Shown in pieces: positions 6,048 through 40,200 of a stretch of DNA of 64,000 nt. The translations under genes and the position numbers were made by a program. Positions within the stretch are counted from its first letter, which is position 1. Every line of letters begins with the position of its first letter. The notes under the pieces were generated by a model. The model was not told the DNA's origin. It did not search any database and was given only the letters and a program-made list of their open reading frames with translations. Source of the DNA: a virus; the IMG/VR virus record IMGVR_UViG_3300030104_002385, positions 1 to 64,000 of that record. The stretch is one strand, 5' to 3'.

Positions 6048-6052
6048 GTTAG

Positions 6053-9000
6053 ATGACAAATATCAATAAGGTTTCTCAGGCAATTAATGCCCAAACACCT
6101 GAGTTTATCAGGAGTGACTATAAACTATTCAACAAATTTGTTGAATATTACTATAGATCACAAGAAAAAACGGGTTTAGGTCAGAATTTACTTAACAATT
6201 TTCTTCAATATCTGGATATTGATAAGTTGGATATTAGTATCCTTGATGGTGCGACTAAGGTAGTAGAAGATGTAAAAGCAACTGATGAAACGATAGTAGT
6301 AGAAACAATTGATGCATTCTTAGAGAAGAATGGATCAGTAATGATAGGCGATGAGGTAATATATTACGAGAAAACGACTTCTGCTCCAAATATAGCATTA
6401 AGTCCAGGTATTTCATATGATCAGGTAAAATTAAAGTGGACTGGTCTTGCAAATCCACTTAAATCTTTTGATGGCACAACTACATCATTCCCATTAACTT
6501 CACAGAACAATCCAGTTGCTCCTCCTTCTGCACAACACTTGATTGTTAGTGTTTATGGTGAAACTTTAATTCCAAATACTGATTATACTGTTAGTGGAAC
6601 CAATATTGTATTTACAACTGCTCCTAGACTAAAATTAGCATCAGATGGTGAAAGTTTTACTTATATCACTTATTTGAGTGGTTTTGTTGAGAATACTATT
6701 GTTGGAACGGATAATATTTCTAATACATTTGGTGATAGTAAGAAACAATTTACTTTAACTAGAAATGGTGTAAGATATGCACCAGAAATTACTGAATATG
6801 TTATTGCTGTATATGATAATAAACTTTTAATACCTAAAGTAGACTTCTTCCTTGATGATGACCAGTTTATATTTAAAACTGCTCCTCTAAATGGTAGAGC
6901 ATTATCAGTATACGCTATTGAGGCACCTATTCCTTCTTTTGGTTCTAATGCTGTAGGATATTCTCGTGTTGATGATACTGGTAATATCACTAGTATTGCA
7001 ATTAATGCAAATGGTACTGGTTACAGGTATGAATATCCACCAAAAGTTTCTATTAACTCGGATACTGGTAGTGGTGCTTCTGCAACTGCTTTAGTTAATG
7101 GTATTAAGAGTGTTGCTCTTCTAGATGGTGGTAAAGGTTATAGTGATACTAACCCACCTACTGTTGTTATTCAAACTCCAACTAAAACTGGATCTAGTGT
7201 AGCATCTGTTAAGGCAACTGTTACTAATGGTGAGGTTTCTGGACTTGAAGTTACCAATTCTGGTAGTGGGTATACTTTTACTCCTAGACTTACTTTCTTA
7301 CAACCTGGAGGTGCTATATTAGGTGCTCCAACTATTTCTAGCGGTCAAATAACTGGTACTGTACCAATTACTACTGCTGGTCAAGGATATACAACGGTTC
7401 CAACCATTTATGTTGATGAACCAACTGGTTCTAACCCAATTAAAGCAAATTTAAGAGCAGTTTTAACAGATGGTAAGGTTACTGGTGTTACTATACTAAA
7501 TGCTGGTCAAGGATATGAAACTGTACCTAGAATAGCAATTATTGACCCAGTTGGTGCTCAAATTCTTCAAACATCGGTTGATGGTGATGGTCGTGTTATC
7601 AATATTGAGATTTTAAGTGGTGGTGGTGGATATGAAGATACCCCATCTGTTTATATTGTAGATGATAGAGTAAATGATCTAGGAGTTTATATTGGTGGTA
7701 CTGGAGCAACTGCTACAGCATCGATTTTCAATGGTCAGATCATTGATATCAACATTACCAATTTTGGTACTGGGTATAGTGCTGTAACACCTCCTCAAAT
7801 CATAATTCAGTCACCACCTTCAGCAGAAGCTTCTGCTACTATTGGTTTAAATGAAGTTACTGGATTTACAGTAAATCAGGCTGGTTCTGGATATACTAAA
7901 GCACAATTTGAAGGATGTGCTAGAGCAGCGAGTGCAATTAAAGAATATACTGAAGATGGTAATGCAGTATTCTCTAATAACACTGTTGCGTCTGCTGCAA
8001 CTAAAGAAACTACTGTTAAGTGTCTAGATGCTGTATTTGTTAAAAGATTACTTGATAAGTACACAGAACAGTTCTTACCTGATGTTCCTAGTTTAGATTA
8101 TACAAAAATTGATGTTAGAAACTCTATTAAGACAATTAAGGACTTCTATTCATCTAAAGGTACTTCTTATAGTATTGCTTACTTATTTAAGTTACTATAC
8201 GGTGAAACTGTAAGTATTTCTTATCCAAAAGACCAAATAATCAAACCTTCTGATGCTACTTGGTCAATTGACACCATTCTTCGTGCAACTTTAGTTAGTG
8301 GTAATCCTGATAATATTAGAGATGGTCTATTAACTCAAGATGCTGATATTGCAGATACTAATGTATTAGCAGCAAGTGCTTTAATAGAAAACTTTATTTC
8401 TATTAAAACATCAGAAACAGAGATATTTGAGTTAGTTTTATCAGAAGAAACTATTGTAGGAAAGTTCACAGTACCTTATAAGACAAGACTTGCTGAACCA
8501 TTAACTGCAACTGCTGGTATCATCACTGTTGACTCTACAATTGGTTGGCCAGAAAGAAACGGTGAATTTGTCATAGGTACAGGTGCTACAGCAGAAGTTG
8601 TACAATATAAGGAAAAATCACTTAACCAGTTTATAGAATGTACTCGTTCTGTAAATGGTGTTGTTGAAGATTGGGATTCTGCTACTGGAATAGCATCAAA
8701 CTTCACAGTGTATGTCAATAAAGGGACTTCTCAAGAAGTTGTGATGAATATTGTTGGTATTGTTGATGCAGAACAAACAACACTGACAGATACTGGATCT
8801 TACTACTTACCAGGTGATAAACTAACTGTTTCTAAGTTAGGTGGTACTGGCGAAGGAGCAGACTTAAAAACTTGGTTATATAACGTTAAAAAGTTGGTTA
8901 CTGTGACATCTATCACTTATGGTGGTGTTAATAATCAATCTGCAACTGTTACATGTGCTAATGCTCATGGTCTTCTTGTTGGTGATCAGGTAACTGTATA

Positions 9001-12000
9001 TGGTGCTAACCCCATTATCTACAACGGATCCTTCTTTGTAACATCTAGAGATACTGCGAATGTTTTCCAGTATCAATTACCTCAACCTGCTACAGTTGTA
9101 CCTCAAGGTAATATTCTTGTATCTGTTGACCTTAATAAAGGTAAGTCGGATAATACTGCTATTTTAAATGTTATTGGACCATATACAACTAACGTCCAGA
9201 ATACATTTTTCAATGATACCCATGTGTATGTTGCTTCTACAGGTATTCCAAACTATGAAATTGGACCTTTTCCAGGATCTGCACTTCTTCCAGGTAACCA
9301 ACGTAAATTAAATAGGTTCCCTAAAACTTCACAGACAATTTCAACTAAAAACCTAATATCAAGTAATGTACCTGTTGGTACATGGGTAAACGGTGTTTCT
9401 ATATGGTCTTATAAGTCTAAATTAACTAAAACTTTTGGTGCTTTAACTGCAATTTCAATTACTACAGCAGGTAAAGAATATGATGCTGCTTCTCCTCCAG
9501 CTATGACAATAGATGGTGGTGGAGGTAGTGGTGCTACTGCAAGTGTAACTGTTGATGGTTCTATCTCTGAGATCACAGTCACTGCAGGGGGTTCTGGGTA
9601 CACATCATCACCATTGGTGTCTATAGTCGGTGGTAATGGTGCTGGTGCTGCTGCAACTGCTATTATTACCAAAGGAGTTGTTTCACGTATTTTAATTAAC
9701 GATGGTGGTTCTGGATATACTTCACAACCTCAAATAACAATTGTTGGAGGTGGCGGATCTGGTGCAACTGCTACGGCATCTGTTCGTGGTCCTATTAAAA
9801 CTGTTGCTATTACAAGTGGTGGTGCATCTTATACCTCAGTACCAACAGTAAGTCTAAGTTCTGGTAGTGGTGCTGTTGCACAAGCAATCGTTAATGATGG
9901 TAGAATTATATCTATTGCTATCATTTCTGCTGGATCTGGATATACTACTGCACCTGAAGTAACTATTCAAGGTGTTGGATTTGGTGCTATTGCTAGAGCA
10001 ACTATTGACACTGATGGAGAAAATGCTGGAAGAGTAACTAATATTGAGATTATTAATAAGGGTATTAACTATGTTCAAGGAACTACACTTATTAACTTAA
10101 CTTCTATTGGATCTGAAGCTACTTTCACACCATCTGTGTTCCAGTGGACTTACAACCTTCAAGCAACATCAACATTCGATGCTGCGAAAGGTGCTGTATT
10201 TGAAGGTTATAACAACGAATATGGTGGTGAATATGCTCACTTATCCAATCCTCAGAAATTAAGATATATTCTTGGTGATAACTTATTCCAAAATACTGAT
10301 GGTGCTATTAAGGAGCAAGAGACACAATTAGCACACTCACCTATTATTGGTTGGGCATTTGATGGTAATCCGATATATGGACCTTATGGATACACTGATC
10401 CTACTGATCAAACCTCTACTATTACAAAATTAAACACATCATACAGATTAAAGACAAATTTAGTCTTTGATGCAACTAACAACCCATTTCCTTCTAGAAC
10501 TGCTGGTCCTCTTATAACAGATGAGGCTTCTGGTAATTTTGTTGAAGATTATGAGTATGTCTTTGGTTTAGGTGATTTAGATCAATATAATGGACGTTTT
10601 TGTAAGACACCCGATTTCCCAGATGGTAGATATGTATATTTCGTAACTATTGATGCTACAGAGGATGGTAATCCACTATTCCCTTATGTTATTGGTCCTA
10701 GTTACAACTCTGTTGTTGATACTTGGAACTTAACTCCTAATGCTATTCAACAGAACATTCCTACTGGTGTTGTTAGATATAGAGACCCATATGAGAATGT
10801 TGATATTGATGTTGAAAGAACTCCAAACGCAGCATCAAATGCATTAACTATGGAGAATGGTGATATTCTCTTATTTGATGCAGAGGATGATAACCGTGAT
10901 GGTGTTATCGAATCTGATGAAGTACCAAGACAAATGTTCGAGGAATCTCCTTTACAACTCTTTGATTACTTCCCTAAAGTTAAATTTGACTCTAAAGTTG
11001 ATATTGAAGTTGAGACTACTACTAAATTTGAAGATGCATCTGTTACTGGATTTACAGTTGAAAACCCAGGTAAAAACTATCAGGTAGATGATCGTCTTGT
11101 ATTTGATAATACAGATACTGATGGATCTGGTGTTTCTGCACGTGTTTCTAGAATTAAAGGTGAAACAGTTTCTGCTTACACATTTGAAAATATCAGTGGA
11201 TTCAATTTTGGTGTTCTACAAACTTCTATACCTCACAATATTGTTGCTGGCGATCAGGTATTTGTAGATTATACACCTATAATGGCGAATACCAATAAGA
11301 CATTTATTGTTCGTCAATTTAAAGGTATTGAGCAAATTGTTATTGACCAAACAGGATCAGGATATAATACTGACATTCCTCCATCAGTTATTATTGATGG
11401 TGATGGATCATCTGGAGAATTAGAAGCTACTGTTAGTTCTGTAGGATCTATTGATACTATTAATATCATAAATTCAGGATCTGGTTATACTAAGAACCCT
11501 AGAGTTATCCTAACTCACCCACAGATCTTTAAAAAAGCAGATTACTACATCTCTAAGATATCAAATAACAGTTATGTTAAAATTAATGATGTTCATGTAG
11601 CAGATAATAAAGAATCATACCTTTGTGGTATGACTAAGGATGCTAGTGGAAATCAAGTTGCTTTTATTGCTAAAGTTTCAGCAACTGGTGTTAAGCAATG
11701 GGAAAGAACTTTAGAAAGTAATACAGGTCAAAATTATACAGAATTCCAGAAAATTTTTGTTGATGGTAATAGTATATGGGTAGTTGGTGGTAATAAACCA
11801 AATGGTAATATGCTATCAGCATATAACCCTGATATAATCTTAGCAAAATACACACAAGCAGAAAATGGTCTAAGTGCTGCATTAACTTTCCAGAAAGGAT
11901 ATGCTGGTATTTCAGGTTCTACTCGTGCTGATTATGTAACTTCACTTAAGAAATATTCAGATACTCGTTTCATTATTGCTGGTTATACCAATACTAACTC

Positions 12001-15000
12001 AGGTGCTCCTTTCGATGCTTGGATTGCATCTATTGACACTACAGGTAATTTTGCTATTAAGAGAAAATTAGCAACTACTAATGCATCCGAGAAAATTACA
12101 GATCTAATTGTTAATGGTACAGATATCTACTTGTGTATGGAAGTTGCTACAACTTCCACTGAAGGAGATGTTAATCCTGCCATTGCTAAGATAACACTTG
12201 GGGTAAATGCATTTACAGTTGATTGGATTAAGCAATACACAAATGTTCTTTATTCTACTCTTGATACAAGCATATGTATTGATGAATTTAATGAAATCTA
12301 TCTCACATCAACTTTAAGACTTAAATCTGATGATACTACTAGAGATAGTTTCTGGGTAGGTAAAGTAGATTCTACAGGAGATTTACTATGGAACTATCGT
12401 TATGTTACTCCAGGTAGAGATATATCACTTGCTAAGAAATCTGTCATTGACATTTTTGGTGATTTAAACATTGCATTTACTAGAACAAATAATACAAACA
12501 CTTTTAAGACTGTAGATTCAGTTAAAATTGGTTATGATGGTAAACTTAAGAACCATAGTACAAATTCATTTACTAATGATAACGTAGAAGGTCTTACTGT
12601 ACACTCATTAGATGTTGATAATTCAGGTGATATTCATCTTTATGGTCAAACCAATTACAATAGAAATGAATTTATATTCGACTTTGCTTCTAATGCAACT
12701 ACCGATGTAACAGGACATTATACACTCAATACTACTTCTGCAACTAATTCAATTACTGTTGCTGGTAATCTTGCTAAGATTTATGGTTATAATCCTGCTG
12801 GTCTTAATAGTTCTTGGGTAAATTCTTACTTTGATATTTCTTCTTCTGCTTTAGGTACAAAATTAGCAAATGATTGGACTTTAGAGTTCTTTATTCATAG
12901 AGTAAGTTCAGAATCTCAAACTTTATCACAAACTAATCAAACTCTATTTGGTATCGGTGGAGCACAAGATGCTACTGGTGGATTATGGTTAGGATATGAT
13001 ATGAGTTCTGGTAAGTTGCAATTTGCAGCAACTAATAATTCAACTGCATTAAGTGGTGCTACACCAGTAGAATCTACACAAACCAACATGTTTGCTAATA
13101 ATAGTTGGCAAGTTATTGGTGTTAAGAAAGAAGGTAATGATTTCAAAGTATATGTCAATGGTATTCAGGTAATTACTGGTATTATTTCTAATACTGCTCT
13201 AGGTGCTAAAACACTATACTTTGGTAACCAAGTAGGTTGGGGTACTGGTGCTGGAGACTTTAAGAAAGAAAGACAAGGACAATTCTATATTGATAATATT
13301 AGACTTAGAAATGGAGCAGTTGTACCAACAGTTCCTAATGATATTCAGAACTTACCTCCAACTGATACTTTTGCATTAAGTTATAGTTGGAATGATACTT
13401 CATGGTTCACTACTAATCTAAACAGATATGATTATATCGATTATGTTGGTTGGGGATTAAAAGTTGATAAAGATGCTGATGCTGCAAGGATTGGTACTCA
13501 AAGTACTCAAACCAATACTCAAATTGGATTTACTAGAACTGCTGTAAGTCCTGTAACTGGAAGTGTATTAACTGTTACAACAACTGGAATATCTTTAGCA
13601 TCTGCTGGATTGCAGTCATTAGATTATGATGATGCAACTATAACACTTCTTCAAGATACTGAGACATTAACTTACACTCAGGATACATGGAGTTCCAGAA
13701 CAGCAACAGTACCTTCACCAGGTTCTCAAAAACTTAAGGTATCTGCTGTAGTTAAAGATCGTTATTTCTTTAAGGTTACAAATACAATTAAAATTGATAA
13801 TATTCAAGAATTAACTGTAAATCAGGCATTCAACTTCACCGTTGGTGCGAAATTAAGATTGAATAATGATTCTGGTACATTTGTTAATAGTGGTTACATA
13901 ATCAAGACAGATACTGTTAATAATAAGGTATATCTTGCTGTTAATAATAATGCTTGGACAGATGATTTAAATACTGGAAAATTAGTTACAGAACAGTTTA
14001 ATGAGCAAAGTACTTATGGTATTGTAGGACCAATTCCAAATGATACTAATATTATACAAAATTATGTTTTCTCAATGGTCAACAATACCACTCCTGGTAC
14101 TTTTGACATAGATTTAGATGATTATAATTTAGATGGCACTGGTTATAATGCTGGTGGTGGTCAGAACCTAGATGGATTTGCTAAGTTCAAACCATTCCTA
14201 GTTGCTGATTATTCAGTTAAAATTGAGGAAGTTGCTGGTGGGTCACCATTTATTGTTGGATCTGTAGTTAATATTGCTGCTAGTAATATTTCATTCAATG
14301 CAACATATACAACTGCTCAAGTTACAGGTCTAACTGCAGTTACTAAGATTACGTTAACTGCTAATTTAAATAAGACACTTCAAGTAACTGCTGTTGCTAA
14401 TACTAATGAAGTGTATGTTATCACAGCAACAAGTCATTATTTGAATAAGGGTGAAATATTATATGTTGATGGTAACCCATCACAGACTGTTGGTGGTACT
14501 GTTTATGATGAGTATGATGGTGCATTTGCTGTAGATACTATAGTAAGTCCTTTAGAATTTACATATAAATTACCAACTATTGCAATTACTGACCCTGCAA
14601 CATCTGCAGGTACTGTAAGTATCTTTGTTAAGTCACCAACTCTTAAAATGTACTATGGTCATCAGTATTTGTTTGACCTAAGTCACTCTTCTCTTGTAGG
14701 TGGTAACTTATCCTTCTCTAAGGATAACTTATACAAACTAGAGTATTCATTCAACTCTATTGAAAGAATAGGTATTCCTGGTGTTACAGGTGGTGGACAA
14801 CCAAGTCCTTCTGTTAAATTGAAAATTGATGATACTATTGTTACTAATATTTCATATTACTTTGATCCATCTAGAACAGGAGATAATTCCCCTGTTGTTG
14901 CTGGTAGTTACTTAGATGTTGTAGAATCTCCTTATAAAGGAACTTTTGATATTACATCTACTTCAGGACAGACAATTACTTCAGGACCAGATACATTCAA

Positions 15001-18000
15001 ATTCCTACTTGCTAATGAACCTGAAGGAAATGCTTCTATATCTCAAACATCTTATAGTACTAGTTCAGTTAAAGCAGTTGGTTCTATAAACGCTATTAGA
15101 ATTGTTAATCCAGGTGGTTTCTATACTAAATTACCTGTTGTTACTGGTATTTCATCAACCAGAAAGATTGAACGAGCAACCATTGAAGAACCAGGAACTG
15201 AATATGCTGTAGGAACTTATAATGGTGTACCTATTACTGGTGACGGTGAAGGTGGTCTTGTACAAATTACTGTTGCTGATGGTCTAGATGACGATGGTAT
15301 AACAATTCCAGGTCAAATTAATGCTGTTGTAATTACTTCAGCAGGTAAAGGATATACCACTGCATCTATTGACATTGATTCAGTAGCAGGAATTCTTGGA
15401 TCTGGATTGACTGGATCAGGAGCAAAAGTAAATGTAATTATCCCACCTTTCGGTACTGAAGCATCTATCTTCACTAAAGGTGATAAAGTTGGTAAGATTA
15501 AGAAACTTAAGAACAATAACTTTGGTTATGATTATCCTCATGACTATACTTTACGTCCTGAGATTACATTCCCATTAAATGCTCAGTTAACTTCTACAAG
15601 TATTCTTTCTAGTATTACAGTAACTAATCCAGGTTCTGGATATTCATTAGCACCTGCTGTAATAATTACAGGTGGTGGTGGATCTGGTGCTACTGCAGAA
15701 TCAAGTATTAAAAATGGTCGATTAGATAATATTGTTGTTAAAGATCCTGGTGCTGGTTATTCATCAACACCAACTATTAGTTTAAGATCTTCCTTTAACT
15801 ATGTTGTAAACCTTGACTTAGGTTTATTACAGTTTGCTTATCCTCATGGTATTGTTAATGGTGCTGCAGTAAGTGTAGCAGTTACTGATACTGGAGATGG
15901 TGCTGATTTCCCTCTTGCTGCTGGTGCTATTGGTCGTCTTAACGCAACTACTACCTATTATGCAATTGCTGGTGCTACTAACTCTTTAGAAGGTGATCAG
16001 TTAAAACTTGCAATTACTGCTTCAAACGCTGCTCTTGGAGACGCAATTTCCTTCGTTAACGCTGGTGAAGGTCGTCAAAGTGTATTAACTGAATCATTTG
16101 GTGGTGCTGCTGAAGCAAATGTTATTACTTCTACTTTCCTTGAAGGTGAATTGGTTTATCAGGGTGATACATTAGATGTTGCTACTGCAACTGGATATGT
16201 TTCTACAAACTCTGGTTGGCAGATTGGACCTAGAATTCTTAAGATTGTTGACTATACAGGAACCTTTGCTAATGGTCAAAAGATTACAGGTGTTATTTCT
16301 AAGTCTTCTGGTACTATAAGTGATCTTAAAGTTGCTCGTGGTGTTCTAGAGATTGGTTCTATTACCAAAACTACAGGTCAGTTTATCGATGATGTTGGTA
16401 AACCATCCGAAATTATTCAAAAAATCCAAGACTCTTACTATTATCAGGACTTCTCTTATGCTGTTAAGTCTGCAGTTTCTATTAGTGATTGGAAAGAAAT
16501 TCTTATTAGAAACGTACACCCTGCATCATTTAAGGTATTTGGTGAGTTAAATCTTAATGAATATGGTCAAATTCCTAATAAGGATACCTTCTTCCAGTTA
16601 ACTAAGTCTGTTGAACTTGCACAGGAAGCAATTGTTCCTAATATTCAGAACTTTGCTTTAGTTGAACCAATATACACAGAGTTCAATAATACCGAGGTTT
16701 TATTCCGTCAGAAGAGATTGACATCTTCAGAGAACATTTTGACCTCTGTTGTACAACGTATTGATGATATTTCTAACCTGTTTGATGGTCAAAAGATTGC
16801 ATTCCCTCTAACTGTTAATGGTAACAACGTTGTTGCTAATGCTAATCAGTTAATGATTGTTCTTAACGGTGTTGTACAAAACCCAGAGACATCATTCAAC
16901 ATTCAGTCAGATTCCATTGTATTCAGTGAACCACCTTCACCACCTGCAAGTGTTAAGTATGCTAACATAACAGTTTCTCAAATTCAAACTGTTGCTTTTG
17001 AGTTTACTAATATTAGCGGTATTTTCCCTAATATTGGAAATCCTCTTGTTGGTAGTAGTACAAATGCAAGATTAATTGTAACTAACGTTACTGGTAATAC
17101 TGTTTCTGGTTATATTACAGAAGGAACCTTTGTTATAGGTGAATTAGTTAGTGTTGGTGCAACAGGGTTCTCTGCTCTCTTAGCATCAAATACTGCTGTA
17201 TCAAATATTGGTCTATTTACATTTGGTGAGAATGTAACTAACTTAACTGGAGATATTGCAAAAGTTGAACAAATTAACTTAGCAACAGGTCAAGAAACTC
17301 CAGCAGCACAATTGCGTTATGCAGTTGGACCTTCAACTACAAGTATTGAGGTAATTCCTTATGGAGGTGCTTCATTATCACCAGTCACTGCTGGAACCTT
17401 TGTAGCAACTCAGAATTATCAATTTGGATCTGAGATATTCCTAGTCAATAGTATTACTGATAATGCAGACTCCACAACTCTTGGGGTATCAAGAGGACAG
17501 GTTGGAACTCAGGCAGTAGCACAACAAGAAAATACACCAGTTTATAGCACTGTTATTGCTGTTACTAATGCATTAACATTAAGTAAGACTGCTGGTACAT
17601 ATAAGTCAACTCCTGGATTATTTGATATTCAGTTGAATGATATTATTATTGGTTCTAATTCTGGAGTTGTTGCTAGTGTTGCATCTACTAGTGCGTATCA
17701 AGATCCTACAACCAATGAGTTTATAGGACAGGTTAATATTTCTCCTGGATCTTCTTTCTTTGGATTGTTATTTAACAGAATTACTTCTTCATCATATCCT
17801 AATGTTGTTCTAGATAACATTTCTCAATCTCAAGTTAATGTTGTAGATTTCACTGATAATCTTACTGCATTTGATAGTAAGTTCCCTGCAAATGAATTAA
17901 TCAATAATTATGTAATACCTTATGATAATGCTGTAGGAAGTATAGTTCAGGATGAATATGTTCGTAACTATAGGATCAATTATGGTAATAATGTTGGAGA

Positions 18001-21000
18001 CTTTACTAGTTCAGAAGATGGAAGAGTAAGAAAACTATCTTTCTACGACAAGCAAGGAACTGGTTTCTTTAATAATGGTCAGATCATAAGAACTAGGGAT
18101 ACAAAGGCAGAAGTTATCGGTTATAGTCAGGCACGTGATATTGTTTATCTTGGTAAGATAGGTAGAACACAATCAAATGGTGAAGATTATTACAAATTCA
18201 CCTTTAGTGAAGATGCTAAATTAGATACTACACAGAAAAAATTTGGTTTAACTTCATTAGAACTTGCAGCAGCAGATTATATTAGCACTCCTTCAACTAC
18301 AGAAATTGCTTTTGGTTCTGGTGTGTTCACTGTAGATCTATGGATAAGACCTGCTACTGCTTCATTAAGTGGTAATGTTGATATTTTTGATACAAGATCA
18401 TCAGGTGCAACTGAAGTTGCTGGTAGATTGTATTTGGCAACTGGTCAACCACGTTGGCATGTTAATGGTTCTGATTTAGTAACTACAAGTACCACTTTAA
18501 CTGCTGATACTTGGGTACATATTGCTATTGTCAGAGTATCCACTACAACAAAAATTTATATAAACGGTACTGAGGCAGGGACTGCTACTGATAACTCATC
18601 ATATATCGCAAAACCAATTCGTATCGGTGCTGATTATGCAGGTGCTAATGGATTTACTGGTCATGTTGATGAATTAAGAATTTCAAATACTTCTCGTTAT
18701 ACCACAGCATTTACTGCTCCTAATGGAATATACCAAGGTGATGCTAATACAAAATTACTACTTCACTTTGAAGGTATAGATGGTGGAGTACATGTTGAAG
18801 ATTGGTCTGGTGTAGAATCATTTACAGCAGGTGAATACTTCAATAATGATTCTATTATTGATACTGTGCGTAAAGTTGCTGGTAAGCATACTTGGGCTGG
18901 TGGTACAGCTAACAATGCTATTAGAATAACAGGTGGTGTAGAAAAGGATGTTACTGATGCTACTTACAATCCAAATACAGGTGACCTAGTATTAACAATT
19001 GGATCACACAGTTATACAACATCTAATACTATTACAATTAAACCAAACTCTTTGACATTTACCTGTGCTAAGGATAATAATGCTACTAATCATACCTATC
19101 CAAGAGTAACTGATCCTGCATATGGTGCAACATTAGCAATCTCAGCAGAAACTGCTACTACAATAACAGTTAATGTTGGTATAGCAAATAGAGGATTTGT
19201 TGGTAATACTCAGAGATACATTAATGCTGGAGATTTGATTACTTCAAACTTAGATTTTATTGCTAAGGAAGTTGTATATCTAATCAATCAGAAATTCCCT
19301 AACTTTACAGTTATTGGTGGTAATGTTAATTGCGAGGATGATGTTAGAGATGTTTGTAAGGCAATTGTATTTGATATTCAGAATGGTAGTAATAGTAAGA
19401 TATGGGATGCAGCGAGTTACTATGTTAATAGAGCAGATGTTAACAATGTTCAACTTCTCAACGTTGAGAAAGAAATTATAGAGACTGTTTGGGCATATGG
19501 AAAGTTAGATGAAATTCTTGACTTTATTGTTACTAACTCTCTATGGGATGTTCAAGGTGATCATGGATTAACTCAGAAGACTGATACTTCTATCACCGAT
19601 TCTACTACATCATCATTTACAGAAATTACTCCAACCAATGTAGTTTATAGTGCTGCAACAGGAGATCTTAAGATAACAAAATCATCTCATGGTTTTGTTG
19701 GTCCTTCTGCACTTACAGCAACAGGAGCAACTTATAATCCTGCAACAGGTATCTTAGAGATAACAAGTAACAGTCATGGTTTACTTAATGGTGATAAGGT
19801 TCAATTAGAAGATGATTCATTAACATTCACTTGTTCAATGGATGAGAACAGAAGCACTCATACTTATCCAAGATCTTCTGATCATGCAAGTCAAGGTTGG
19901 TTAAGTGTTCAGAATAAGCAAACTAATACTTTCCAACTTGATGTTGGTAAAACACCTAACGTAGGTTTCCAACCTTCAGCAGCAACTTATGATGCTGAAA
20001 GTGGTCTCTTAACAATGGATATTGGTGAACATCGTTTAAGAGCAGGTACTAATGTTAAATTAGCGAAGGAATCTTTATCATTCACTTGTGATATGGATGA
20101 TGATTTTACAACTAAGAAATATCCTAGAACAACTGATCCAGTATATAATGATTCTATTCCTATTCTATATGAAGGTTCTCGTCATACAATAACCTTTGCA
20201 ACATATACACCATCATCAGGTAAGATGGTTCTTACTTGTGGTAAGCAGTTTAGTGTTACTGACGCTGCATATGTACCTACAACTGGTGTTATGACACTGA
20301 CTGTTCCTAATCATGGACTTACTGTTAATGATCAGATTAAGATTGTTAATAACAGTATTGTATTTACTTGTGCAATGGATGACCATACTACTGATCATTC
20401 ATATCCAAGATCTACTGATCCTCAAAGTGATAAGAGATTGAGTTTAAGTAACATAACAACAAACACATTTGATGTTAATGTTGGTACTACTCCAGCAGTT
20501 AACTTTACTCCTGGTGCTGGTACAACATACAATCCTGCAACTGGTGATCTAGTACTAGCAATTGGAACTCACTCACTATCTGTTGGTGATGGTATTAGAA
20601 TTGCTGATAATTCACTTACATTTACTTGTAACTATAATGGTGATGGCAACTCAACTCAGAAGACATACCCAAGATCAAGTGGTGAAAATGGTACTGCTGG
20701 TGGAGCATCTAACAACACTGGAACTCCAGACCCTGCATATCAGACTTCCGTCTATATTACTGGTACAACTTCAACAACAATTACAGTTAACGTAGGAACA
20801 TCATCAGATACTTCTACTCATGTATTCGTAACTGCTAATTCAAATGCAATAGTCACAGGTGGTGATTATGCACACATCTTCCAATATGCAGTTCCTAATG
20901 GAATTACATATGACAATCATAGATTTGAAAATGGTGATAAGGTAAGACTTCTTGATAACTCATTGACATTTACTTGTCAGTTAGATGGAAATGATACCGA

Positions 21001-24000
21001 TCACGCATATCCAAGAGTAGGAAAAGATCCTTATGCTGGTAGACAGTTTAAGATTGCTAATAAGACAGATAAGACATTTGAAATAAATGTTGGCATCTCC
21101 CCTGATAAATCCACACATACATTTAAGTCTGCATATCCAGGTGGTCTTATCCATGTTGATAATACTGTAACTTTAGATGTAGGTAAGTCACCTAAGTTGG
21201 TTCATGATATCAGTAATGCAGTTTATACTCCTGCTGATGGTAACATGGTTCTTACACTTGGAACTCATGATTTGGTTGTAGGAGACAATATTAAATTGTT
21301 GAATGAAGCTGTTACATTTACTTGTGATCAAGATAGTGATGTATCTGAGCATGCATATCCAAGAACAACAATTGATACACATCAGGCAACTACTGGTACA
21401 TCTTATAATCCTACTACAGGTATTATGAGTATCACTACCACATCTGCTCATGGAATGAGAAATGGTGATTGGGTTAAATTTGATGATGACTCACTTACAT
21501 TCAATTGCAACTTTGATGGTTATCAAACCAATAAAACTTATCCAAGATCAACTGACCCTGTTAGTGGTAAGTGGATACAAGTTTCTAACGTAGCATCTAC
21601 TACATTTGATGTTCAAGTATTGGATGTTATTCCATCTACAAACTTAGATCCTCATATCTTTGTATCTGGTACAGCAACTGGTATTAAGCAAAAACGTGAC
21701 AAGACTTTTGATACTTCTGTTTCTATCACTGCTGTTGGAACTTCTAATAAGACTGCTTCTGGTGGAGCATACAATCCCGAAACTGGTGTTCTAACCATTA
21801 CTTCTAGTAGTCATGGATTAACTGGTGCTTCTGAGCATACTGTAACTAATTCAACTTATACACCTTCAACTGGTGTTTTAACATTGACCATCGCTGGTCA
21901 TGGATTTACAAATGGTGACAGAATAAGAATTAAAGATGATTCAATAACATTTACTTGTTCTAAGGATTATGATGCAACTATTCATACATATCCTCGTTCA
22001 ACTGATCCCGTAAGTAATAAGTTCTTACATATCGTTAACGTAACTACTAATACATTTGATGTTAATGTTGGCAAGTCTCAAGATCTATCTTCACATACAT
22101 TCATTTCAGCAACATCTAATGGTATTGAAAGGGCAGTTGCTTCAGTAAAATTAGACGCAGATTCAATCACATTTAGTTGTGATATGGGTGGTGGTGCAGT
22201 TAATAAGACTTATCCACGTACTACTGATCCAATTGCTAATCAATGGGTTCCAATTACTAATAGTCAAACCAATTCATTTGATATATTTGTAGGAAAAACT
22301 GTATTTGGTAATACTGCTCATTCATATCAATCTGCAACTTCTAATGGAATTAAGGTTCAGGATGGAACAGTTACAATTAACGTTGGTATTTCATCCAACA
22401 CAACAACTCATGCTTTCGTAGAAGCGAAGAAAGGAGCATTAATTGTTGGTGGTGTTTATACACATACATTCGTTCCTCAAGCAGCATATTCTGTAACTGA
22501 TGCATCTTATAACCCAACTTCAGGTGTTATGGAATTGACCATTAATGGTCATGGATTTGAAAATGGTGATTTCATTCAAATTGCCAACGAATCATTAACA
22601 TTCAGTTGTGGTTTCAATGGAGCATCTGGTACTGCTGCACAAAAAGCATATCCAAGAGCAACTGATTTCTCTAGTGGTAAATGGTTAGAAATATCTAACG
22701 TAGCTACTAATACATTCGATGTTCAAGTTCTAGAAACAGCACCTTCTACAAACACTGATACACATACATTTGTATCTGCTACTAGTGGTGGTGTAGTAAG
22801 ATCTGCTCTTAAGACAGGTGGTGCTTATACTCATACATTTAAGTCTGCAATTGCAAATGGTATTAAGAAGCAAGGACAAGCAATTACAATTAAACCAGAA
22901 GGTCTAACACTTAAGTGCAATATTGATGATAATGCAACTAAGCACATTTATCCTCGTAAGACTGATCCTGCTTATAATTCTGCGTTAGCAATTACAAAAT
23001 ATGATACTAATACATTTACTGTAAACGTAGGTAAGTCTCTTGCAAATGAAGAAAATACACCTTATACACCAACTGCAGCAACATACGATCCTTCAAACGG
23101 TAATATGGTTCTTACACTTGGTAAGCACACTTTGACTACAAGTGACAGTGTTTTAATTGAAGATGAATCATTGAAATTCTCTTGCACGATGGATAATAAT
23201 CAGTCTCCTAAAGCATATCCTCGTTCATTACATGATACTCGTGCTTCTGGAAGACCTGTTGCTATCACTGCTGTTGGTACAACTTCACATACAATAACTG
23301 CTGCTGATTATAATCCTGTAATAGGCGAATTGTTATTGACAGTTGCTAATCATGGATTATCTGAAGGTGACATGGTTAAGTTTGATGTTAATGCAATAAG
23401 ATTTACATGTGCTAAGGATAGTAATGCTACTAACCATGATTATCCAAGATCAACAGATCCAGTTGCTGATAAGTGGATCGAAGTAAGAAATGTAACCACA
23501 ACTCAATTCAGAGTAAATGTTGGTGTTTCTTCTGATACATCTCAGCATCAATTTGTTTCTGCAGTTAGTGGAGCACTTAAGAGTCAAACAGGAACAGTTA
23601 CTGTTAATGTTGGTTCTGCTGGTACTAACGCTCAATTCACACCTTCTGCAGCAACTTATGATGCTGAGACAGGTAACATGACTTTGACTATTGGTCAACA
23701 TGGTATGAAGAAGGGTTCAAGTGTTACTATTGCTAATGCTGGTTTGACATTCAACTGCACAATGAATGGAGGATCTTCTAATAAGCAATATCCAAGATCA
23801 ACAGACCCATATGGTAATCTTAAGTCTATCCCTGTTACACATATAGGACATACACATCATACAATTACTAATGCCACTTACAGTCCTGGTATTGGTAAGT
23901 TAACGATAACCATTCCTAGTCATGGTTTCTCTAATGGTGATTATGTTCAGATTGTAGATAATTCAATAACATTTAGATGTGAACTAGATGGCAATACCAC

Positions 24001-27000
24001 AGATCATGCATATCCTAGAACTGGATTTGATCGTGCAAGTGGTGGATGGTTCGCTGTTGCTGGTGCAGCAACTGATACTTTTGATATTAATGTCGGTGTA
24101 TCTTCAGATACATCCACTCATGTATTCAAATCTGCTACAACTAAAGGTCTTCGCAAACAAAGTGGTGTAATTACGGTTAATGTTGGTGCATCTCCAATTA
24201 AGGGATATGATGTTTCTAACGCTGTATTCACTCCTTCCACTGGTGTTTTAGTTCTAACCATTGGTGAGCATAGTCTTACATCTGGCACATCTCTCAAGAT
24301 TGCTAATAATTCACTCGTATTCCGTTGTGATGCTGATGGTCAAGCTTCTGATCACTCTTATCCTCGTGCAAATGGTCAAAGTGGTGCAACTGCTGATGAT
24401 CCAGCATATAATGATGCTGTAGAAATTGTTTCTGTAACTTCTAATACAGTTACACTTAACGTTGGTACATCTTCTAACACCACTACTCATGCATTCCAAA
24501 GCACTAATAATACTTACACTGCAAGTACTGCTGCTTATAATCCAACTACAGGTGTAATGACTATTACATCTAATGGTCATGGAATGATTAATGGTGAGCA
24601 TATCAAGATTGCTGATAATTCATTAACATTCACATGTGCTCAAGATAGTAATGCTACTAATCATTCATATCCACGCCCAACTGATCCTGTATCTAATAGA
24701 TGGTTAACAATTTCTAATGTACAAACTAATACATTTGATGTTCAGGTTCTAGATCAAGTTCCATCAACAAACTTAACTGCACATACATTCGTATCTGCTA
24801 CTGCAAATGGTATTACTAGAGCAGTATTGAGTACTGGTGGTGCTTATACTCATACATTTGTAACTGCTGCTTCAAATGCTGTTTCTTATACACCACAATC
24901 AACACATACTTTCGTAAGTGCAGATCCTGGTTCTATTAAGAAGATATCAACAACACATACATTTGTTTCTAGTATTACTAATTCCATTAAACTTCTTAAC
25001 CATAATACTGCTGATTGCACTGATGTTCAAACAAACATTGAGAACTTAATTAATATCTTAACTGATACACTCAATGCTGCTAATTTAGCAACTCCTGTAG
25101 ATCATCTAGGTGCTGTAACTAGGTCTAAACCAGACTATGAATTCCTTGGTGGTAAAGTAGGAACATACTATGAAGTTCCATTCCCAGTTTCTTATCATAA
25201 TAGTACAGATGATCAGATCTACGCTAATCAGATTGATCTTGATACACAGTATAGGTTCCGTGATGCTGCAAACTTAATACGTGTTAACCTCGGTCCTATT
25301 ATTGATAAGGCATCTGCTGATATGCTCAGTAGATATCCAGATCTTGCTTTGGATATGCCTAGAAATGCTAATGGTACATCTACTGATGGTACTCTCAGGT
25401 GTAAGACAGACTTGATACTTATTGCTGAAGAAATAATCAAAGATATTGAAGATGGTGGTAACCTCAACTCTGTTAATGTTGCTAAACAGTATCTCGGAAC
25501 AAATGATGTTCTCGTACATATTAGATTACAAGTATTCCAATCTGCATATGCTCATGAACGTCTAGGTTTCTATATGAAACAGGCAATCATTGGTAACTTA
25601 AGTGGTACAAATACAGATAAGATTATTGTTGGTGACTGGGATATCACTCAAGATCCTACTACAGGAACATTTACTCCTACTGGAGCAACTTATGATTATA
25701 CAACTGGTGATTTAGTTCTAACAATTGGATCTCATACTCTTGCAGTTGGTAGAATGATCCAACTTGCTGAGAACGGACTTACATTCTCATGTAACACAGG
25801 ATCTGGTGCTGTTAATAAAACATATCCTAGATCAATAGGTGCAAATACAGCAACTGGTGCAGACTATGCATACAATACCAATCTTGCAATTACTTCAAAA
25901 ACAGCAACAACAATTACTGTTAATGTAAATGGTGGTCAAGGTCCTATCAGTAATGCTAATACACATACATTTGTATCTGCCACAACTAATTCTGTCATAG
26001 TTCCTGGTGATTGTGCTAATGTTCAAGATGCAATTGATACTTTAGTTAATACAATTAATGATATTATTGCTCCTACAGAAGAAGCATTCGGTGTTGCTGC
26101 TGATAGACTTTACTTCAACAGAGATTACATTGCTGAAGAGATAACAAATAGAGTTACTGCAGAATTTACATATACTTTAAATGGTATAAACTATTCAGCA
26201 TTCACTTATCCTGGTGCTACTGGTGAAGCAACTTGCCGAAGAGATCTCAAACTAATCATTGTTAGTATGATATCTGATTTACAAACAGGTGGAAATAATA
26301 GTACAGTTGCTGCTATTGAAAAATATTTAACTTCTACATTATCAATCAGTTATGTTGAGAAAGAATTACTACCAACTCTATATGCTATAGAGCAGTTGAA
26401 AGAACTTGGTGATTATGCTATTAGAAATAGATTATTCAACGTTGGACATACAACAGTTGGTGATCAATATGCTGCACAGTTCACATCTCAATCTGCATTC
26501 CAAGATTCATTTAATCCACCAAATATCCTTCATGTTACAACAAGATTTAACGAACTTGTAGATTTTGCTCTTAATATTCTTGCTCCTAGCAGAAAAACTG
26601 GTAGAGGTGCTGCGAAGAATATTCTTTATAATAGAAACTATTATAAGCAAGAAATTACAAACCTTGTAAATTCTCAGTTTGGTTCTGGAACATGGACTTA
26701 TGATACATTCTTAGATGAAGTTGTTGACGATTTAGTTCATGACACTATCGTAACCAACACATTAGATAATCAGTTAGGTCGTTCAATTACAATTGAAAAT
26801 GTTATAGGTGTATTTGTTAAGGGTGAAACGGTTCGCTCTAATAATAATGGAACTGCTATAGTCCTTGAGTTTGTTGCTGATACAAACTTATTAATTGTAG
26901 GAACCTTCACTGGCAGTATGTGGAAAGGTGTAGATCTCATTGAAGGATCAGTTTCTGGTGCTGTTGCTGATATTAGCGTTGGTGGAGTTAGTGATGATTA

Positions 27001-37203: not shown

Positions 37204-40200
37204 ATGGCACAAAATACTAACTTAAACGTCACCCCGTATTACGACGACTTTGATAAAAGTAAAAACTTTTATCGAGTGCTGTTCCGACCTGGATTTCCTA
37301 TACAGGCAAGAGAACTATCCACGATGCAAAGCATCATGCAAAATCAGGTTGAGAACATTGGTTCTCATACCTTTAAAGATGGTGCAATGGTCATACCAGG
37401 TCAGGTTGGTTATGACTTAAATGTTGACTGTATCATGCTTCAAGAAAGTTTTCTTGGTGCTGATGTTGAGAATTATCGTAGTCAACTTACAGGTAAAATT
37501 ATTACAGGTTTGACTTCTGGTGTTAAAGCCAAAGTCCTTTATAGTATATCTGCTGCTGAATCTGACAAAAGCTACATTACAATATATGTAAAGTATATTG
37601 AATCTGGTGGTGCTGCATTAAATCAAGATACATTTTCAAATAATGAACAGTTAATTACTGAAAGTGAAATTACTTTTGGAACTACTTTGATTGAAGTTGG
37701 TTCACCATTTGCACAGTTGTTACCTACTTCAGCAATTCAAACAGGATCTGTTGCTTATGTACAATCTGGTGTATACTTTATTAGAGGGTTCTTTGTAGAC
37801 GTACCCTATCAATATATCCTTCTTGATCAATATGGAACTTCACCAAAATATAGAATTGGACTTGAAATCCTCGAGTCAATTGTTACCCCAGAAGATGACC
37901 TTAGCCTCAATGATAACGCTGCAGGAACATCTAATTATGCTGCTCCTGGTGCTCATAGGTTCAGAGTAACAACAAACTTAATTAAAAAATTACTTACAGA
38001 TGATGCTGATAAGGACTTTATAGAATTACTAAGACTTAATGGTAATAAGGTTGAGAAGATTGTTGATCGTAGTGCTTACGATGAATTAGAGAAAAGTCTT
38101 GCCTTAAGAACATTTGAAGAAAATGGTGACTATGTTGTAAAAGATTTCCAAATCAGTATGAGGGAAAACCTCAATGATGGATTTAATAATGGTGTTTATT
38201 CCATTGGAGATATTACAAGTGGTGGTGCAACTGCTACTGAATCTAATTACTCTGTTGAAATTGGACCTGGTATTGCGTATGTAAGGGGTTATAGAGTTAA
38301 GACTACAGCACCAACCTACATTGACTTAATAAAACCAAGAGAAACGGATTCTGCACAGAACACTAACATAGCATTTGAACTTGGAAACTGGTCTACTATA
38401 GAAAACCTATTTGGTTTCCCTAATGTTGCTGGATCTACAATTACTAATGCATATCAAACTTTAGAATTACGTGATACTTTAACAGCAAGTGCTGGAACTG
38501 CTGCTGGTAATCTTATTGGTTATGCTAGAGTTGCTTCATGTGAATATGTAAGTAATCCAGATACGACATTTGGTAATACTGATGACAGGTATAAATTAAA
38601 TCTGTTTGATGTACAAATGGTAACTACAATTCAGTTGAATTCTGCTAAGACTATTGCTCAAGGATCAATAGTTGTTGGTGCAACAACTGGTGCAAGAGGT
38701 TATTTAATTGATGCTGTAACTGCAGCAACTCATATAAACTTGTATCAAGTAGAAGGAACATTTGCTGCTAGTGAGTATTTACTTTTAGATGGTGAACAAT
38801 TAGATACGATTACTAATGTTCACACATACAAATATTCAGATACCAGACAGATTGTTGGTAAAGATGAAGGTACTACTGCTGTAGAATTTACTTGTGATGT
38901 TCGTTTAGAAGATGCACTATTCCTTCAAGGTGCTACATTTACCTATGATGCGACTGGTGGTTCTGAAAAGATTACTGGTTTAAATTCTAATTTTGCATCT
39001 GATTTAAGACCAGGTGATAGAATTTACTTCTCTGAGACTAAGTATGTTGATGTTGATTTTGTAGATCCTACTAACTTAGCATCTTCAAACGTATCTACAA
39101 TATTCAACTATCAAGCTCAAACTGTTAATGTTACTCCTGGTGCTGGTGGTGCTGCTCCTACTGCAGGAACTTATACTGTAATGGTAAGATATAGATCTAA
39201 ATTAAATCAAACTGAAAATGCAGATCTATTCAGTGCTCTAACTAAACCATATGTTAAGAGTATTTCTGATGAATCTATGGTTTGTAGAAGAACCTTTGAT
39301 GCTCAAACTGTTGCATCAAGTTCTATCTCCATAACCCTTCCTGAAAATGAGCAGTTTGAACCAATAACAGATCAGAATTATACTATTACTGTACTCGGTA
39401 GTACTAACGGTACTTATCCTGCTGGTGATCAAATACCTATTGATATAGCAAACTCTGGTGCTTTAGGATATACTTCTTTCACATCTTCTGAAAGAACTAC
39501 TATTCAGATAGATAACCTAACAAATATATCATCTGTTAAGGTAACAGCAACAATTTCTAAGAACGTAACGCAGAGAAAGACAAAGGCGTTACAGAAAATG
39601 TTTATCTTAAAAGTCAATAAGACTACTAAGAATTTAGATAAGATAAATTACGGTTTAACATATTCAAACTTATATGGAACAAGAATACAAGATAAAGATG
39701 TATCTCTTGGTCTAGTAGATTCTTATAAAGTTCATGCTGTGTATGAATCATTAGATGATAGTGATCCAGTAATACCATCTGTTACTTTAGTTGAACCTAC
39801 ATTCTTTGCTGTAGGAACAGTTGTAACTGGTAGAACTTCCAAAGCAAGGGCAACAGTAGTTGATTTTAACTCAAGTACTTTAAAACTAACAATCGTTTAT
39901 CTATCTGGTGCATTCACATCTGGTGAAACTGTTAATGGTTTCAATACTGCAGGTGCTGCTATTAGTGGAATTATCAATGATTCTGTTGGATCTGTTGTAG
40001 CAGGTTCTAAAGTAATTACAGATCGATATATTGTAGATAATGGTCAAACACCATTCATGTATACTTGTGCTAGATTAACTAGAAAGAAAGGATTTGTTCA
40101 ACCAATTAGAAAGTTAAAAATCGTTATAGATTACTATAGTCATTCTGCTACTGGAGATTACTTTGGTGGTCAGTCTTACTTAGAAACTGATTATAAGAAT

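What the first reader, a model, noticed from the sequence alone, without database searches (positions are those of the whole stretch)
19970..24850. Sub-trees appear duplicated as whole branches, with copy subtype tied to insertion site
SEEN: copy 3 (FQPSAATYDAESG) and copy 14 (FTPSAATYDAETG) are both split at the same point in segment C by a child starting HTIT (copy 4 HTITFATYTP, copy 15 HTITNATYSP; likewise copy 13 HTITAADYNP inside copy 12). Both carry a C|D child of a second subtype (copy 7 HDISNAVYTP...SSNTTTHAF; copy 16 YDVSNAVFTP...SSNTTTHAF). Leaves 8, 11 and 17 share the tail FDVQVL-x-x-x-PSTN, and 11 and 17 both sit inside a D segment. INFERENCE: the tree grows by in-frame recombination that copies host-plus-guest units. 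This would be a DNA-level route to combinatorial variation in branch topology.
Basis: partly seen in the sequence, partly recalled or inferred. Interest (0 to 1): 0.75.

Follow-up and report, generated by a model that had tools for sequence, protein, structure and literature searches.

The report
Duplicated branches in nested phage domain tree
In a giant baseplate protein of a marine cyanophage, 17 copies of one small beta-barrel domain sit inside each other's loops, and two branches of this tree are old copies of one host-plus-guest unit, so the tree grew by copying whole branches, not by an active shuffling system.

Summary
The finding lies in a 7,974-aa gp7-position baseplate protein of an uncultured T4-like cyanophage. 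Residues 4525-6313 are one ~100-aa beta-barrel domain interrupted recursively by 16 copies of itself, six levels deep, at four fixed loops.

With the extra sub-branches spliced out, branch D3[D4][D7]+D11 aligns end to end with branch D14[D15][D16]+D17 (415 columns, 51.6% identity, one 17-aa gap). Trees pair D4-D15 (98/92), D7-D16 (85/81) and, once orthologues are added, D3-D14. Block duplication of a host-plus-guest unit is therefore supported.

The duplication is old. DNA identity is 65-72%, and both branches are present in every orthologue whose DNA covers both branches (45-60% identity in this region). Orthologues differ only by whole-domain or whole-branch gains and losses at the same loops. 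Other relatives carry a 414-aa four-domain nested unit 3-4 times.

"Subtype tied to site" holds only coarsely. Internal loops take only "guest-clade" domains, yet FDVQVL leaves occur at all four sites. I found no sign of programmed or ongoing shuffling.

The closest published case is the nested Si3 insert of cyanobacterial RNA polymerase. This scan has already noted the nested architecture in at least 8 other genomes.

The parts
6053..29977 (+). Giant ORF (7,974 aa) in the gp7 position of a T4-like baseplate module
   Evidence: Single open frame. Pfam Baseplate_wedge PF23786 scores 31.3 bits against a cut-off of 27, and phrog_701 matches. Neighbours run in T4 gene order, from gp25-like and gp6-like upstream through to sheath and tube downstream.
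19625..24991 (+). Root domain D1 (segments 19625-19714, 22871-23062, 24944-24991), which encloses the whole 17-domain tree
   Evidence: Leaf peeling removes it last, in round 6, and the spliced domain scores 103 bits over profile positions 2-99.
19967..22870 (+). Left branch: host D3 (19967-20182, 21152-21202, 22445-22486), guest D4 at site 69, second host D7 at site 86, then leaf D11 (22487-22801) and the following D strand
   Evidence: After the extra sub-branches are spliced out, it aligns colinearly with the right branch.
20249..20908 (+). Extra sub-branch D5+D6 inside D4 (site 21). It is absent from the right branch and from class-B orthologues
   Evidence: The nucleotide offset step 3669 to 3003 equals this block. 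The D4 equivalent is an uninterrupted leaf in P0006, P0008, P0011, L028, L049, L058 and L027.
21386..22357 (+). Extra children of D7: D8 (21386-21691, site 57) and D9+D10 (21752-22357, site 70). D16 has no such children
   Evidence: The offset step 3003 to 2079 corresponds to these blocks.
23063..24943 (+). Host D12 (23063-23287, 23585-23635, 24890-24943) with guest D13 (23288-23584) at site 70 and the D14 branch at site 85
   Evidence: The D13 equivalent is missing in P0003, L078, L121, L037, L050 and L111.
23636..24889 (+). Right branch: host D14 (23636-23854, 24158-24205, 24821-24889) with guest D15 (23855-24157) at site 70, and D16 (24206-24514) and D17 (24515-24820) at site 86
   Evidence: The AlphaFold2 model built with 11 orthologous rows has mean pLDDT 85.5, and most host segments score 79-93.
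22817..22840 (+). First copy of the 24-nt exact repeat encoding GGAYTHTF, at the junction of leaf D11 with the next D strand
   Evidence: This is the longest exact direct repeat in 18800-26100. Codon-shuffled controls give 12-20 nt.
24836..24859 (+). Second copy of the 24-nt exact repeat, at the junction of leaf D17 with D14's D strand
24821..24991 (+). Three tandem D strands that close D14, D12 and D1 in that order
   Evidence: Sequence read. The peeling parse assigns one strand to each open domain.

Best explanation
The stretch encodes the decorated middle of a giant gp7-position baseplate wedge protein of a T4-like marine cyanophage. One ~100-aa six-stranded beta-barrel domain is nested in copies of itself at four permissive loops. 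In profile positions these are about 21-28, 57, 69-70 and 86.

Two branches of the tree descend from one ancestral unit: D3[D4@70][D7@86]+D11 and D14[D15@70][D16@86]+D17. That unit was a host barrel, a guest at site 70, a second host-type barrel and an FDVQVL leaf at site 86, plus a closing strand. It was copied once as a single DNA block (shown). Afterwards the left copy gained whole sub-branches, or the right copy lost them: D5+D6, D8, D9+D10 and one extra 17-aa D strand (inferred).

The duplication predates the divergence of all recovered orthologues. Since then the tree has changed only by gain or loss of whole domains or branches at the same loops. The broad rule that internal loops accept only guest-clade barrels probably reflects structural compatibility (inferred). 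The route was probably rare recombination between diverged repeats or illegitimate recombination, filtered by selection for foldable products. It was not a dedicated variation system (inferred).
For: - **Nesting.** Six peeling rounds; all spliced domains score 98-133 bits. Fragment coordinates are complementary under a leaf-only profile.
- **Colinearity.** Nucleotide matches D3-D14, D4-D15, D7-D16 and D11-D17 lie in order with offsets 3669, 3003, 2079 and 2028. The offset steps correspond to whole sub-branches.
- **Block alignment.** The reduced left branch aligns with the right branch over 415 columns at 51.6% identity with one 17-aa gap. Background domain pairs are about 40% identical.
- **Permutation tests.** p = 0.0001 to 0.001.
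- **Trees.** D4-D15 98/92 and 100/95; D7-D16 85/81 and 92/81. The D3 and D14 orthogroups are sisters at SH-aLRT 83. D3+D14 and D11+D17 are not rejected by the AU test (p 0.40 and 0.28).
- **Orthologues.** Both branches are present in every orthologue whose DNA covers both branches; topologies differ by whole-domain indels.
- **Family precedent.** A four-domain nested unit is repeated 3-4 times, with 66-89% identity position by position and 30-55% between positions. The position clades have 99-100% support.
- **Fold.** Leaf pLDDT is 94.5. The D14 sub-tree has pLDDT 85.5, with long paired strands (66-76 and 173-183) running from host into guest at site 70.
Against: - In the orthologue tree (quick method), D7 and D16 orthogroups are not sisters, and D4/D15 fall in an unresolved 16-row clade.
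- D11 and D17 each have a closer relative in a distant phage (L005_1 at 100/94; L005_10) than each other. The leaf pair may therefore be older than, or separate from, the block.
- The order of leaf and D strand differs between the branches. The extra 17-aa strand lies before D11 on the left, and the D strand after D11 formally belongs to D2, not D3.
- With only ~100 columns per domain, many forks cannot be resolved.
- No model coordinates were available, so the packing of host segments is inferred from confidence and secondary structure only.
Confidence: 0.75

Rival explanations
1. Independent insertions under a site-subtype rule. Each loop accepts only a particular barrel subtype, so similar children at similar sites arose by separate insertions from a shared pool, not by copying a whole branch.
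For: Internal-loop sites hold only guest-clade domains: 8 of 8, against 2 of 11 at site 86 or top level (Fisher p = 0.0007). The same holds in L005 and L007. D11 and D17 have closer relatives in L005 than each other.
Against: Four pairs are colinear, with similar linkers and junctions. D4-D15 are sisters at 98-100%. FDVQVL leaves occur at all four sites, and HT-x-T guests occur at both the 26 and the 70 sites, so no fine rule exists. Block duplication is directly seen in relatives.
Confidence: 0.12
2. Gene conversion between two unrelated branches made them look alike. This would be concerted evolution, not common origin.
For: A 24-nt exact repeat lies at the equivalent leaf-to-D-strand junctions (22817 and 24836). 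It is longer than in 20 codon-shuffled controls, which gave at most 20 nt.
Against: Overall DNA identity between the branches is only 65-72%. The D3, D14, D4, D15, D7 and D16 orthogroups are each separately monophyletic across phages, so there is no ongoing homogenisation. The exact run covers only 8 fully conserved codons.
Confidence: 0.05
3. An active or frequent recombination process reshuffles branches within phage populations, giving combinatorial appendage variants on short time scales.
For: Topology differs among relatives. In other relatives the unit copies keep identical runs of up to 56 nt, and unit number varies between 3 and 4.
Against: The window has no repeat longer than 24 nt. 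Orthologues at about 50% identity differ by only one to four domain indels. Twenty runs from 11 studies hold at least 55% of the words of this stretch. In the four runs laid, the near-identical contig pieces listed show the window's arrangement, and one of 2,198 nt spans about a dozen junctions; all 'joints' have short sides (34 nt or less) at 85% likeness and are unreliable. No reverse transcriptase or recombinase was found among the ORFs scanned.
Confidence: 0.04

Closest known systems
Si3 insertion of cyanobacterial RNA polymerase beta' (RpoC2): recursively nested sandwich-barrel hybrid motif / HABAS domains
   Same: Homologous small beta domains are inserted into each other recursively. 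A 2026 survey reports six nesting levels, eight domains in the Si3 region and bifurcating nodes for Prochlorococcus RpoC2, as its most complex case (PMC13114784; PMC11515920).
   Different: The protein and setting differ: a phage baseplate rather than the RNAP trigger loop. The fold probably differs too, since the best structural matches here are E1 FCCH and endosialidase barrels at Z about 7. This tree has 17 domains. Here there is also evidence for duplication of a whole host-plus-guest branch and for branch-level differences among orthologues. I found no mention of that for Si3 in the passages I read.
T4 gp7 baseplate wedge protein and its giant cyanophage homologues (phrog_701; P-SSM2 'gp7 baseplate wedge initiator')
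   Same: It sits at the same gene position between gp6-like and gp8/9-like genes, has a Pfam Baseplate_wedge match, and matches phrog_701 over its full length.
   Different: From my own knowledge, T4 gp7 has about 1,000 aa and no such domain tree. The nested region is unannotated in Pfam, and I found no paper that describes it.
Tandem-repeat expansion of domains in phage fibre and adhesin proteins by segmental duplication
   Same: Growth is by duplication of DNA blocks encoding whole domains, with faster divergence than the rest of the protein. The nest is 46-57% identical to orthologues, against 65-72% for the whole protein.
   Different: The duplicated unit is not a linear run of domains. 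It is a nested host with its guests, and the two copies sit at different depths of one tree rather than side by side.
E1 ubiquitin-activating enzyme FCCH domain and the endosialidase beta-barrel domain
   Same: Both are small beta-barrels with an HG-x-x-GD hairpin. They are the best structural matches (Z 6.8-7.1, rmsd 2.5-3.2 over 72-78 residues). There is also a weak Pfam PF16190 hit. From my own knowledge, both are themselves inserted domains.
   Different: The sequence match is below the Pfam cut-off (18.7 against 29.5 bits). Z about 7 is within the range of common arrangements. No homology is shown.

Membership tests
T4 gp7-like baseplate wedge protein | Sequence match to the baseplate wedge family | tested here: met
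   PF23786 scores 31.3 bits against a cut-off of 27 at residues 682-729. phrog_701 matches over its full length.
T4 gp7-like baseplate wedge protein | Gene position between gp6-like and gp8/gp9/gp10-like genes in a T4-type module | tested here: met
   Upstream are phrog_261 and phrog_219 (wedge subunits). Downstream are phrog_677, phrog_708 and phrog_438, then neck, terminase, sheath and tube genes.
T4 gp7-like baseplate wedge protein | Physical presence in the baseplate wedge | not testable with these tools
   This needs virion proteomics or cryo-EM of a cultured relative.
Recursive self-nested domain insertion (Si3-type architecture) | Homologous domains interrupt one another with balanced, multi-level nesting | tested here: met
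   Six peeling rounds. All 18 spliced copies score 98-133 bits end to end, and no residue in 4524-6315 is left unassigned.
Recursive self-nested domain insertion (Si3-type architecture) | Domains are sandwich-barrel hybrid motif / HABAS folds | tested here: inconclusive
   None of the top 50 structural matches is titled as an RNA polymerase or hybrid-motif entry. The best are FCCH and endosialidase barrels at Z about 7. A family that is not listed is not excluded.
Recursive self-nested domain insertion (Si3-type architecture) | Located in the RNA polymerase beta' trigger loop | tested here: not met
   The host protein is a phage baseplate protein. It works like Si3 but is not a member.
Segmental (block) duplication of a host-plus-guest unit | Colinear series of paralogous members, including junctions | tested here: met
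   Ordered nucleotide matches whose offset steps correspond to whole sub-branches. 415 aligned columns at 51.6% identity with one gap. Permutation p 0.0001-0.001.
Segmental (block) duplication of a host-plus-guest unit | Each positional pair is sister in the domain tree | tested here: inconclusive
   D4-D15 98/92 and D7-D16 85/81. The D3 and D14 orthogroups are sisters at 83, but D7/D16 and D4/D15 are unresolved in the orthologue tree. D11/D17 are not sisters but not rejected (AU p 0.28).
E1 FCCH domain (PF16190) | Pfam match above the gathering score | tested here: not met
   18.7 bits against a cut-off of 29.5, E = 0.0019.
Programmed diversity system (diversity-generating retroelement or invertible cassettes) | Near-identical template and variable repeats | tested here: not met
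   The longest exact direct repeat in 18800-26100 is 24 nt. Copies are 65-72% identical. Inverted repeats were not searched.
Programmed diversity system (diversity-generating retroelement or invertible cassettes) | Reverse transcriptase or site-specific recombinase nearby | tested here: not met
   None among the 19 other ORFs scanned against PHROGs. Small ORFs in 55200-58600 and the last, cut ORF were not scanned.
Programmed diversity system (diversity-generating retroelement or invertible cassettes) | Structural variants within one population | tested here: inconclusive
   Only assembled contigs were available. The near-identical pieces listed show the window's arrangement, and the joints have short sides at 85% likeness.

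The most novel reading that the evidence does not exclude
Every barrel accepts guests at the same four loops. In-register recombination between paralogous barrels that occupy equivalent site paths in different branches, or in co-infecting phages, would therefore always give a balanced, foldable tree. Under this reading, whole-branch swap, duplication and loss would be a favoured evolutionary route by which cyanophages remodel a branched baseplate appendage, perhaps tracking host surface changes. That would make this a natural system in which protein topology, not only sequence, is the variable trait.
Probability: 0.2. Interest if true: 0.75.

Novelty: new variant of a known kind. Interest (0 to 1): 0.55.

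Why it matters
Recursive insertion of a domain into copies of itself is known from one published case, the Si3 insert of cyanobacterial RNA polymerase. How such trees grow is not settled.

Here the history can be read. One host-plus-guest unit was copied as a block, and related phages differ by whole branches at four fixed loops. Another lineage repeats a four-domain nested unit 3-4 times. This gives a concrete, testable model for how nested architectures evolve: block duplication, then whole-domain gain and loss at permissive loops. It also offers a large natural data set for studying domain-insertion tolerance, since the search returned 471 giant homologues with E ≤ 1e-20.

For phage biology, it marks the fastest-evolving part of a baseplate protein as a candidate host-interaction surface whose shape changes in steps of whole domains.

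Tried and rejected
- Megablast of 18800-26100 against phage records found only 50-100-nt patches. There is no close cultured relative.
- A PDB sequence search with one leaf found nothing at E ≤ 10. Foldseek against PDB found nothing at E ≤ 0.001.
- The first IMG/VR search with the nest protein returned only relatives at about 30% identity. A degenerate DNA pattern for NVGTSSNTT-x-H was needed to reach orthologues.
- Peeling with a profile made only from uninterrupted leaves stalled at D5, whose D strand is divergent. It therefore could not reach D4, D3, D2 or D1. The full profile completes the parse but was built from the hand-spliced copies.
- Laying metagenome contigs at 85% likeness gave hundreds of 'joints'. 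All have sides of 34 nt or less and most likely come from other cyanophages' copies of the domain. I do not count them as variants, and parts without cover prove nothing.
- I considered a crossover between the two 24-nt GGAYTHTF repeats as a working recombination site. I rejected it as productive, because the deletion product would leave D1 without its middle segments. This is reasoning on the parse.
- I considered a permuted domain model with the D strand first. I rejected it for the tree, because three D strands stand in tandem at its end and none at its start.
- Literature searches found no description of this architecture in virions.
Full report
**What the region is.** The window is the first 64 kb of a 92.7-kb IMG/VR viral contig. 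All large genes lie on the + strand. They follow the T4 late-gene order: wedge subunits (phrog_261, phrog_219), a giant ORF, phrog_677, phrog_708, phrog_438, neck proteins, terminase, sheath and tube.

The finding lies in that giant ORF, 6053-29977, which encodes 7,974 aa. The ORF matches Pfam Baseplate_wedge above its cut-off and phrog_701 over its full length. It sits where T4 has gp7. Cultured relatives are T4-like cyanophages of Synechococcus and Prochlorococcus, all below 60% identity in this region.

**The nesting is real.** There are 19 YPR motifs between aa 4300 and 6650. Reading the sequence, I parsed one root domain (D1) whose three pieces enclose 16 further copies (D2-D17). Single copies D0 and D18 stand beside helical domains on either side.

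- Spliced together, all 19 copies align over their full length.
- A leaf-peeling procedure finds uninterrupted domains, cuts them out and repeats. It reproduced my parse in six rounds, and every spliced domain scored 98-133 bits over profile positions 1-5 to 96-100.
- That profile came from my spliced copies, so I repeated the test with a profile built from uninterrupted leaves only. Four split hosts (D7, D9, D12, D14) then re-formed at 74-88 bits. The remaining fragments had complementary profile coordinates, for example 2-21 with 18-97 for D4 and 2-25 with 25-83 for D1.
- Insertions fall at four places only, in profile positions: about 21-28, 57, 69-70 and 86. Site 21-28 is the HG loop. Site 57 follows YPR-x-x. 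Site 69-70 is the hairpin before the T-x-T-V-N-V-G strand. Site 86 precedes the last T-H-T-F strand.

**Structure prediction.** AlphaFold2 gives a confident small beta-barrel for a leaf (pLDDT 94.5, pTM 0.85, 81-row alignment). For the D14 sub-tree it gives pLDDT 85.5 with 11 orthologous rows. In that model, strands 66-76 and 173-183 run without a break from host into guest and back. This fits a guest carried on an extended host hairpin at site 70.

I had no model coordinates, so the closure of split hosts rests on confidence values and secondary structure. The best fold matches are the beta-barrel of phage phi92 endosialidase and the E1 FCCH domain (Z 6.8-7.1). Foldseek found nothing significant in PDB.

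Every quoted motif is at the stated place. D3, D14 and D12 are split at position 69-70 by children that start HTIT. D7 and D16 are site-86 children that share SSNTTTHAF. D8, D11 and D17 share FDVQVL-xxx-PSTN.

One statement needs correction. D11 and D17 are not inside a D segment. Each follows a sibling and precedes its parent's D strand. In the four cases where a site-86 child is followed directly by its parent's D strand, the junction reads GG-x-Y-[TA]-H-[TI]-F. The three tandem D strands at 24821-24991 close D14, D12 and D1, so the brackets balance.

**Are the two branches copies of one unit?** Five lines of evidence bear on this.

- *Nucleotide matches.* They are weak (65-72%) but ordered: D3-D14, D4-D15, D7-D16 and D11-D17, at offsets 3669, 3003, 2079 and 2028. 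The steps between offsets correspond to whole sub-branches: D5+D6, D8+D9+D10 and a 17-aa D strand.
- *Block alignment.* With those sub-branches spliced out, the left branch aligns to the right branch over 415 columns at 51.6% identity with a single 17-residue gap. Unrelated domain pairs are about 40% identical. Linkers are alike too, for example SIPILYEGSR-HTIT against SIPVTHIGHTH-HTIT.
- *Permutation tests.* On the four pair identities these give p = 0.0001 for any pairs, 0.001 when the superclade pattern is kept, and 0.0004 when the left branch is fixed.
- *Trees.* They pair D4-D15 (98/92; 100/95 in a larger set) and D7-D16 (85/81; 92/81). With orthologues added, the D3 and D14 orthogroups are sisters (SH-aLRT 83), with D12 next. 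D3+D14 and D11+D17 are not rejected by the AU test.
- *Weak points.* In the orthologue tree D7/D16 and D4/D15 are unresolved. D11 and D17 each have a closer relative in a distant phage than each other. The left branch carries its extra D strand before the leaf.

**Age and relatives.** A search of 5.8 billion proteins found full-length orthologues at 65-72% identity overall and 46-57% in the nest. IMG/VR holds further ones. Every orthologue whose DNA covers both branches carries both a D3-type and a D14-type branch. The duplication is therefore older than this group.

The orthologues' trees differ by whole domains or branches at the same loops:

- D5+D6 is absent from seven orthologues.
- Two orthologues (P0005 and L078) have an extra site-86 child in D5.
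- The D11 equivalent has a site-57 child in the class-B orthologues.
- D13 is absent from six.

A more distant lineage (L006-L016) carries a 414-aa unit of four nested domains, X(@86 Y(@86 Z(@70 W))), three or four times. Identity between units is 66-89% position by position, against 30-55% between positions. DNA identity is 74-81%, and the position clades have 99-100% support. That is direct evidence that host-plus-guest units are copied as blocks in this family.

**Subtype and site.** The 19 domains split into two superclades (98/94). All eight children at internal loops belong to the guest clade. Nine of the eleven domains at site 86 or at top level belong to the host clade (Fisher p = 0.0007, not corrected for relatedness).

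At finer scale the link fails. FDVQVL leaves sit at sites 57 and 86 here and at 26, 57 and 69 in L005. HT-x-T starts occur at both the 26 and the 70 sites.

**Is the variation active?** I found no support for that.

- The longest exact repeat is 24 nt, at the two GGAYTHTF junctions.
- No reverse transcriptase or recombinase is among the ORFs I scanned.
- The barrel domain occurs in no other ORF of the window.
- Twenty public runs from 11 studies hold at least 55% of the words of this stretch. In the four runs laid, the near-identical contig pieces listed show the window's arrangement, including one 2,198-nt piece across about a dozen junctions. The many 'joints' at 85% likeness are unreliable.

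**What is known.** A 2026 survey of 2.7 million domains gives six-level recursive nesting in Prochlorococcus RpoC2 Si3 as its most complex case (PMC13114784; see also PMC11515920). The architecture here therefore works like Si3, in a different protein and probably a different fold. I found no paper describing it in a virion.

This scan has already reported the nested tree in at least eight other cyanophage genomes and on this stretch. It held no note on branch duplication.

**Verdict.** The claim of a route to combinatorial variation holds only in the slow, comparative sense.

Noticed in passing
window 22817-22840 and 24836-24859: A 24-nt exact repeat (GGTGGTGCTTATACTCATACATTT, encoding GGAYTHTF) lies at the equivalent leaf-to-D-strand junctions of the two branches. 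It is the longest exact repeat in 18800-26100 and longer than in 20 codon-shuffled controls. It could be a remnant of the duplication, a micro-conversion or chance.
   Followed up: partly
window 20858-20881, 22448-22471, 22817-22840, 24836-24859: In the four cases where a site-86 child is followed directly by its parent's last strand, the junction reads GG-x-Y-[TA]-H-[TI]-F. This looks like a conserved connector for that insertion site.
   Followed up: partly
window 22430-22486: The left branch has a 17-aa stretch with no counterpart in the right branch. It consists of the tail of D7 plus most of the D strand I assign to D3 (…GGVYTHTFVPQ). The strand after D11, which I assign to D2, aligns with D14's own strand. 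Which strand completes which barrel cannot be settled from sequence.
   Followed up: partly
window 18944-19198 (D0) and the upstream residues HTWAGGTANNAIRI: The copy upstream of the tree has no D strand after its C segment and has a D-like strand before its A segment. My parser skips this copy because its profile match ends at position 82.
   Followed up: no
L006, L007, L012, L013, L016 (IMG/VR loci): A 414-aa unit of four nested barrels is repeated 3-4 times per protein, separated by other sequence. Units are 74-81% identical in DNA, with identical runs of up to 56 nt. L012 has three units where L006 and L007 have four.
   Followed up: yes
L006 versus L007: The two proteins are 93-95% identical but differ by an indel of about 274 aa between the third and fourth nested units. 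This is a recent large in-frame change.
   Followed up: no
P0006, P0008, P0011, L028, L049, L058, L027: In this class of orthologues the leaf equivalent to D11 is itself a host, with a child at site 57. The D4 equivalent is an uninterrupted leaf.
   Followed up: partly
window 6053-29977: The nested region diverges faster than the rest of the protein. It is 46-57% identical to orthologues, against 65-72% over the whole length.
   Followed up: partly
window 1641-3570: A PAAR-like protein (phrog_281), an unknown protein and a 2OG-Fe(II) oxygenase (phrog_81) sit between baseplate genes, upstream of the gp25-like gene.
   Followed up: no
window 37204-44376 and 44962-51468: Two further giant ORFs (2,390 and 2,168 aa; phrog_358 of unknown function and phrog_697 structural protein) lack the nested barrel domain.
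   Followed up: partly
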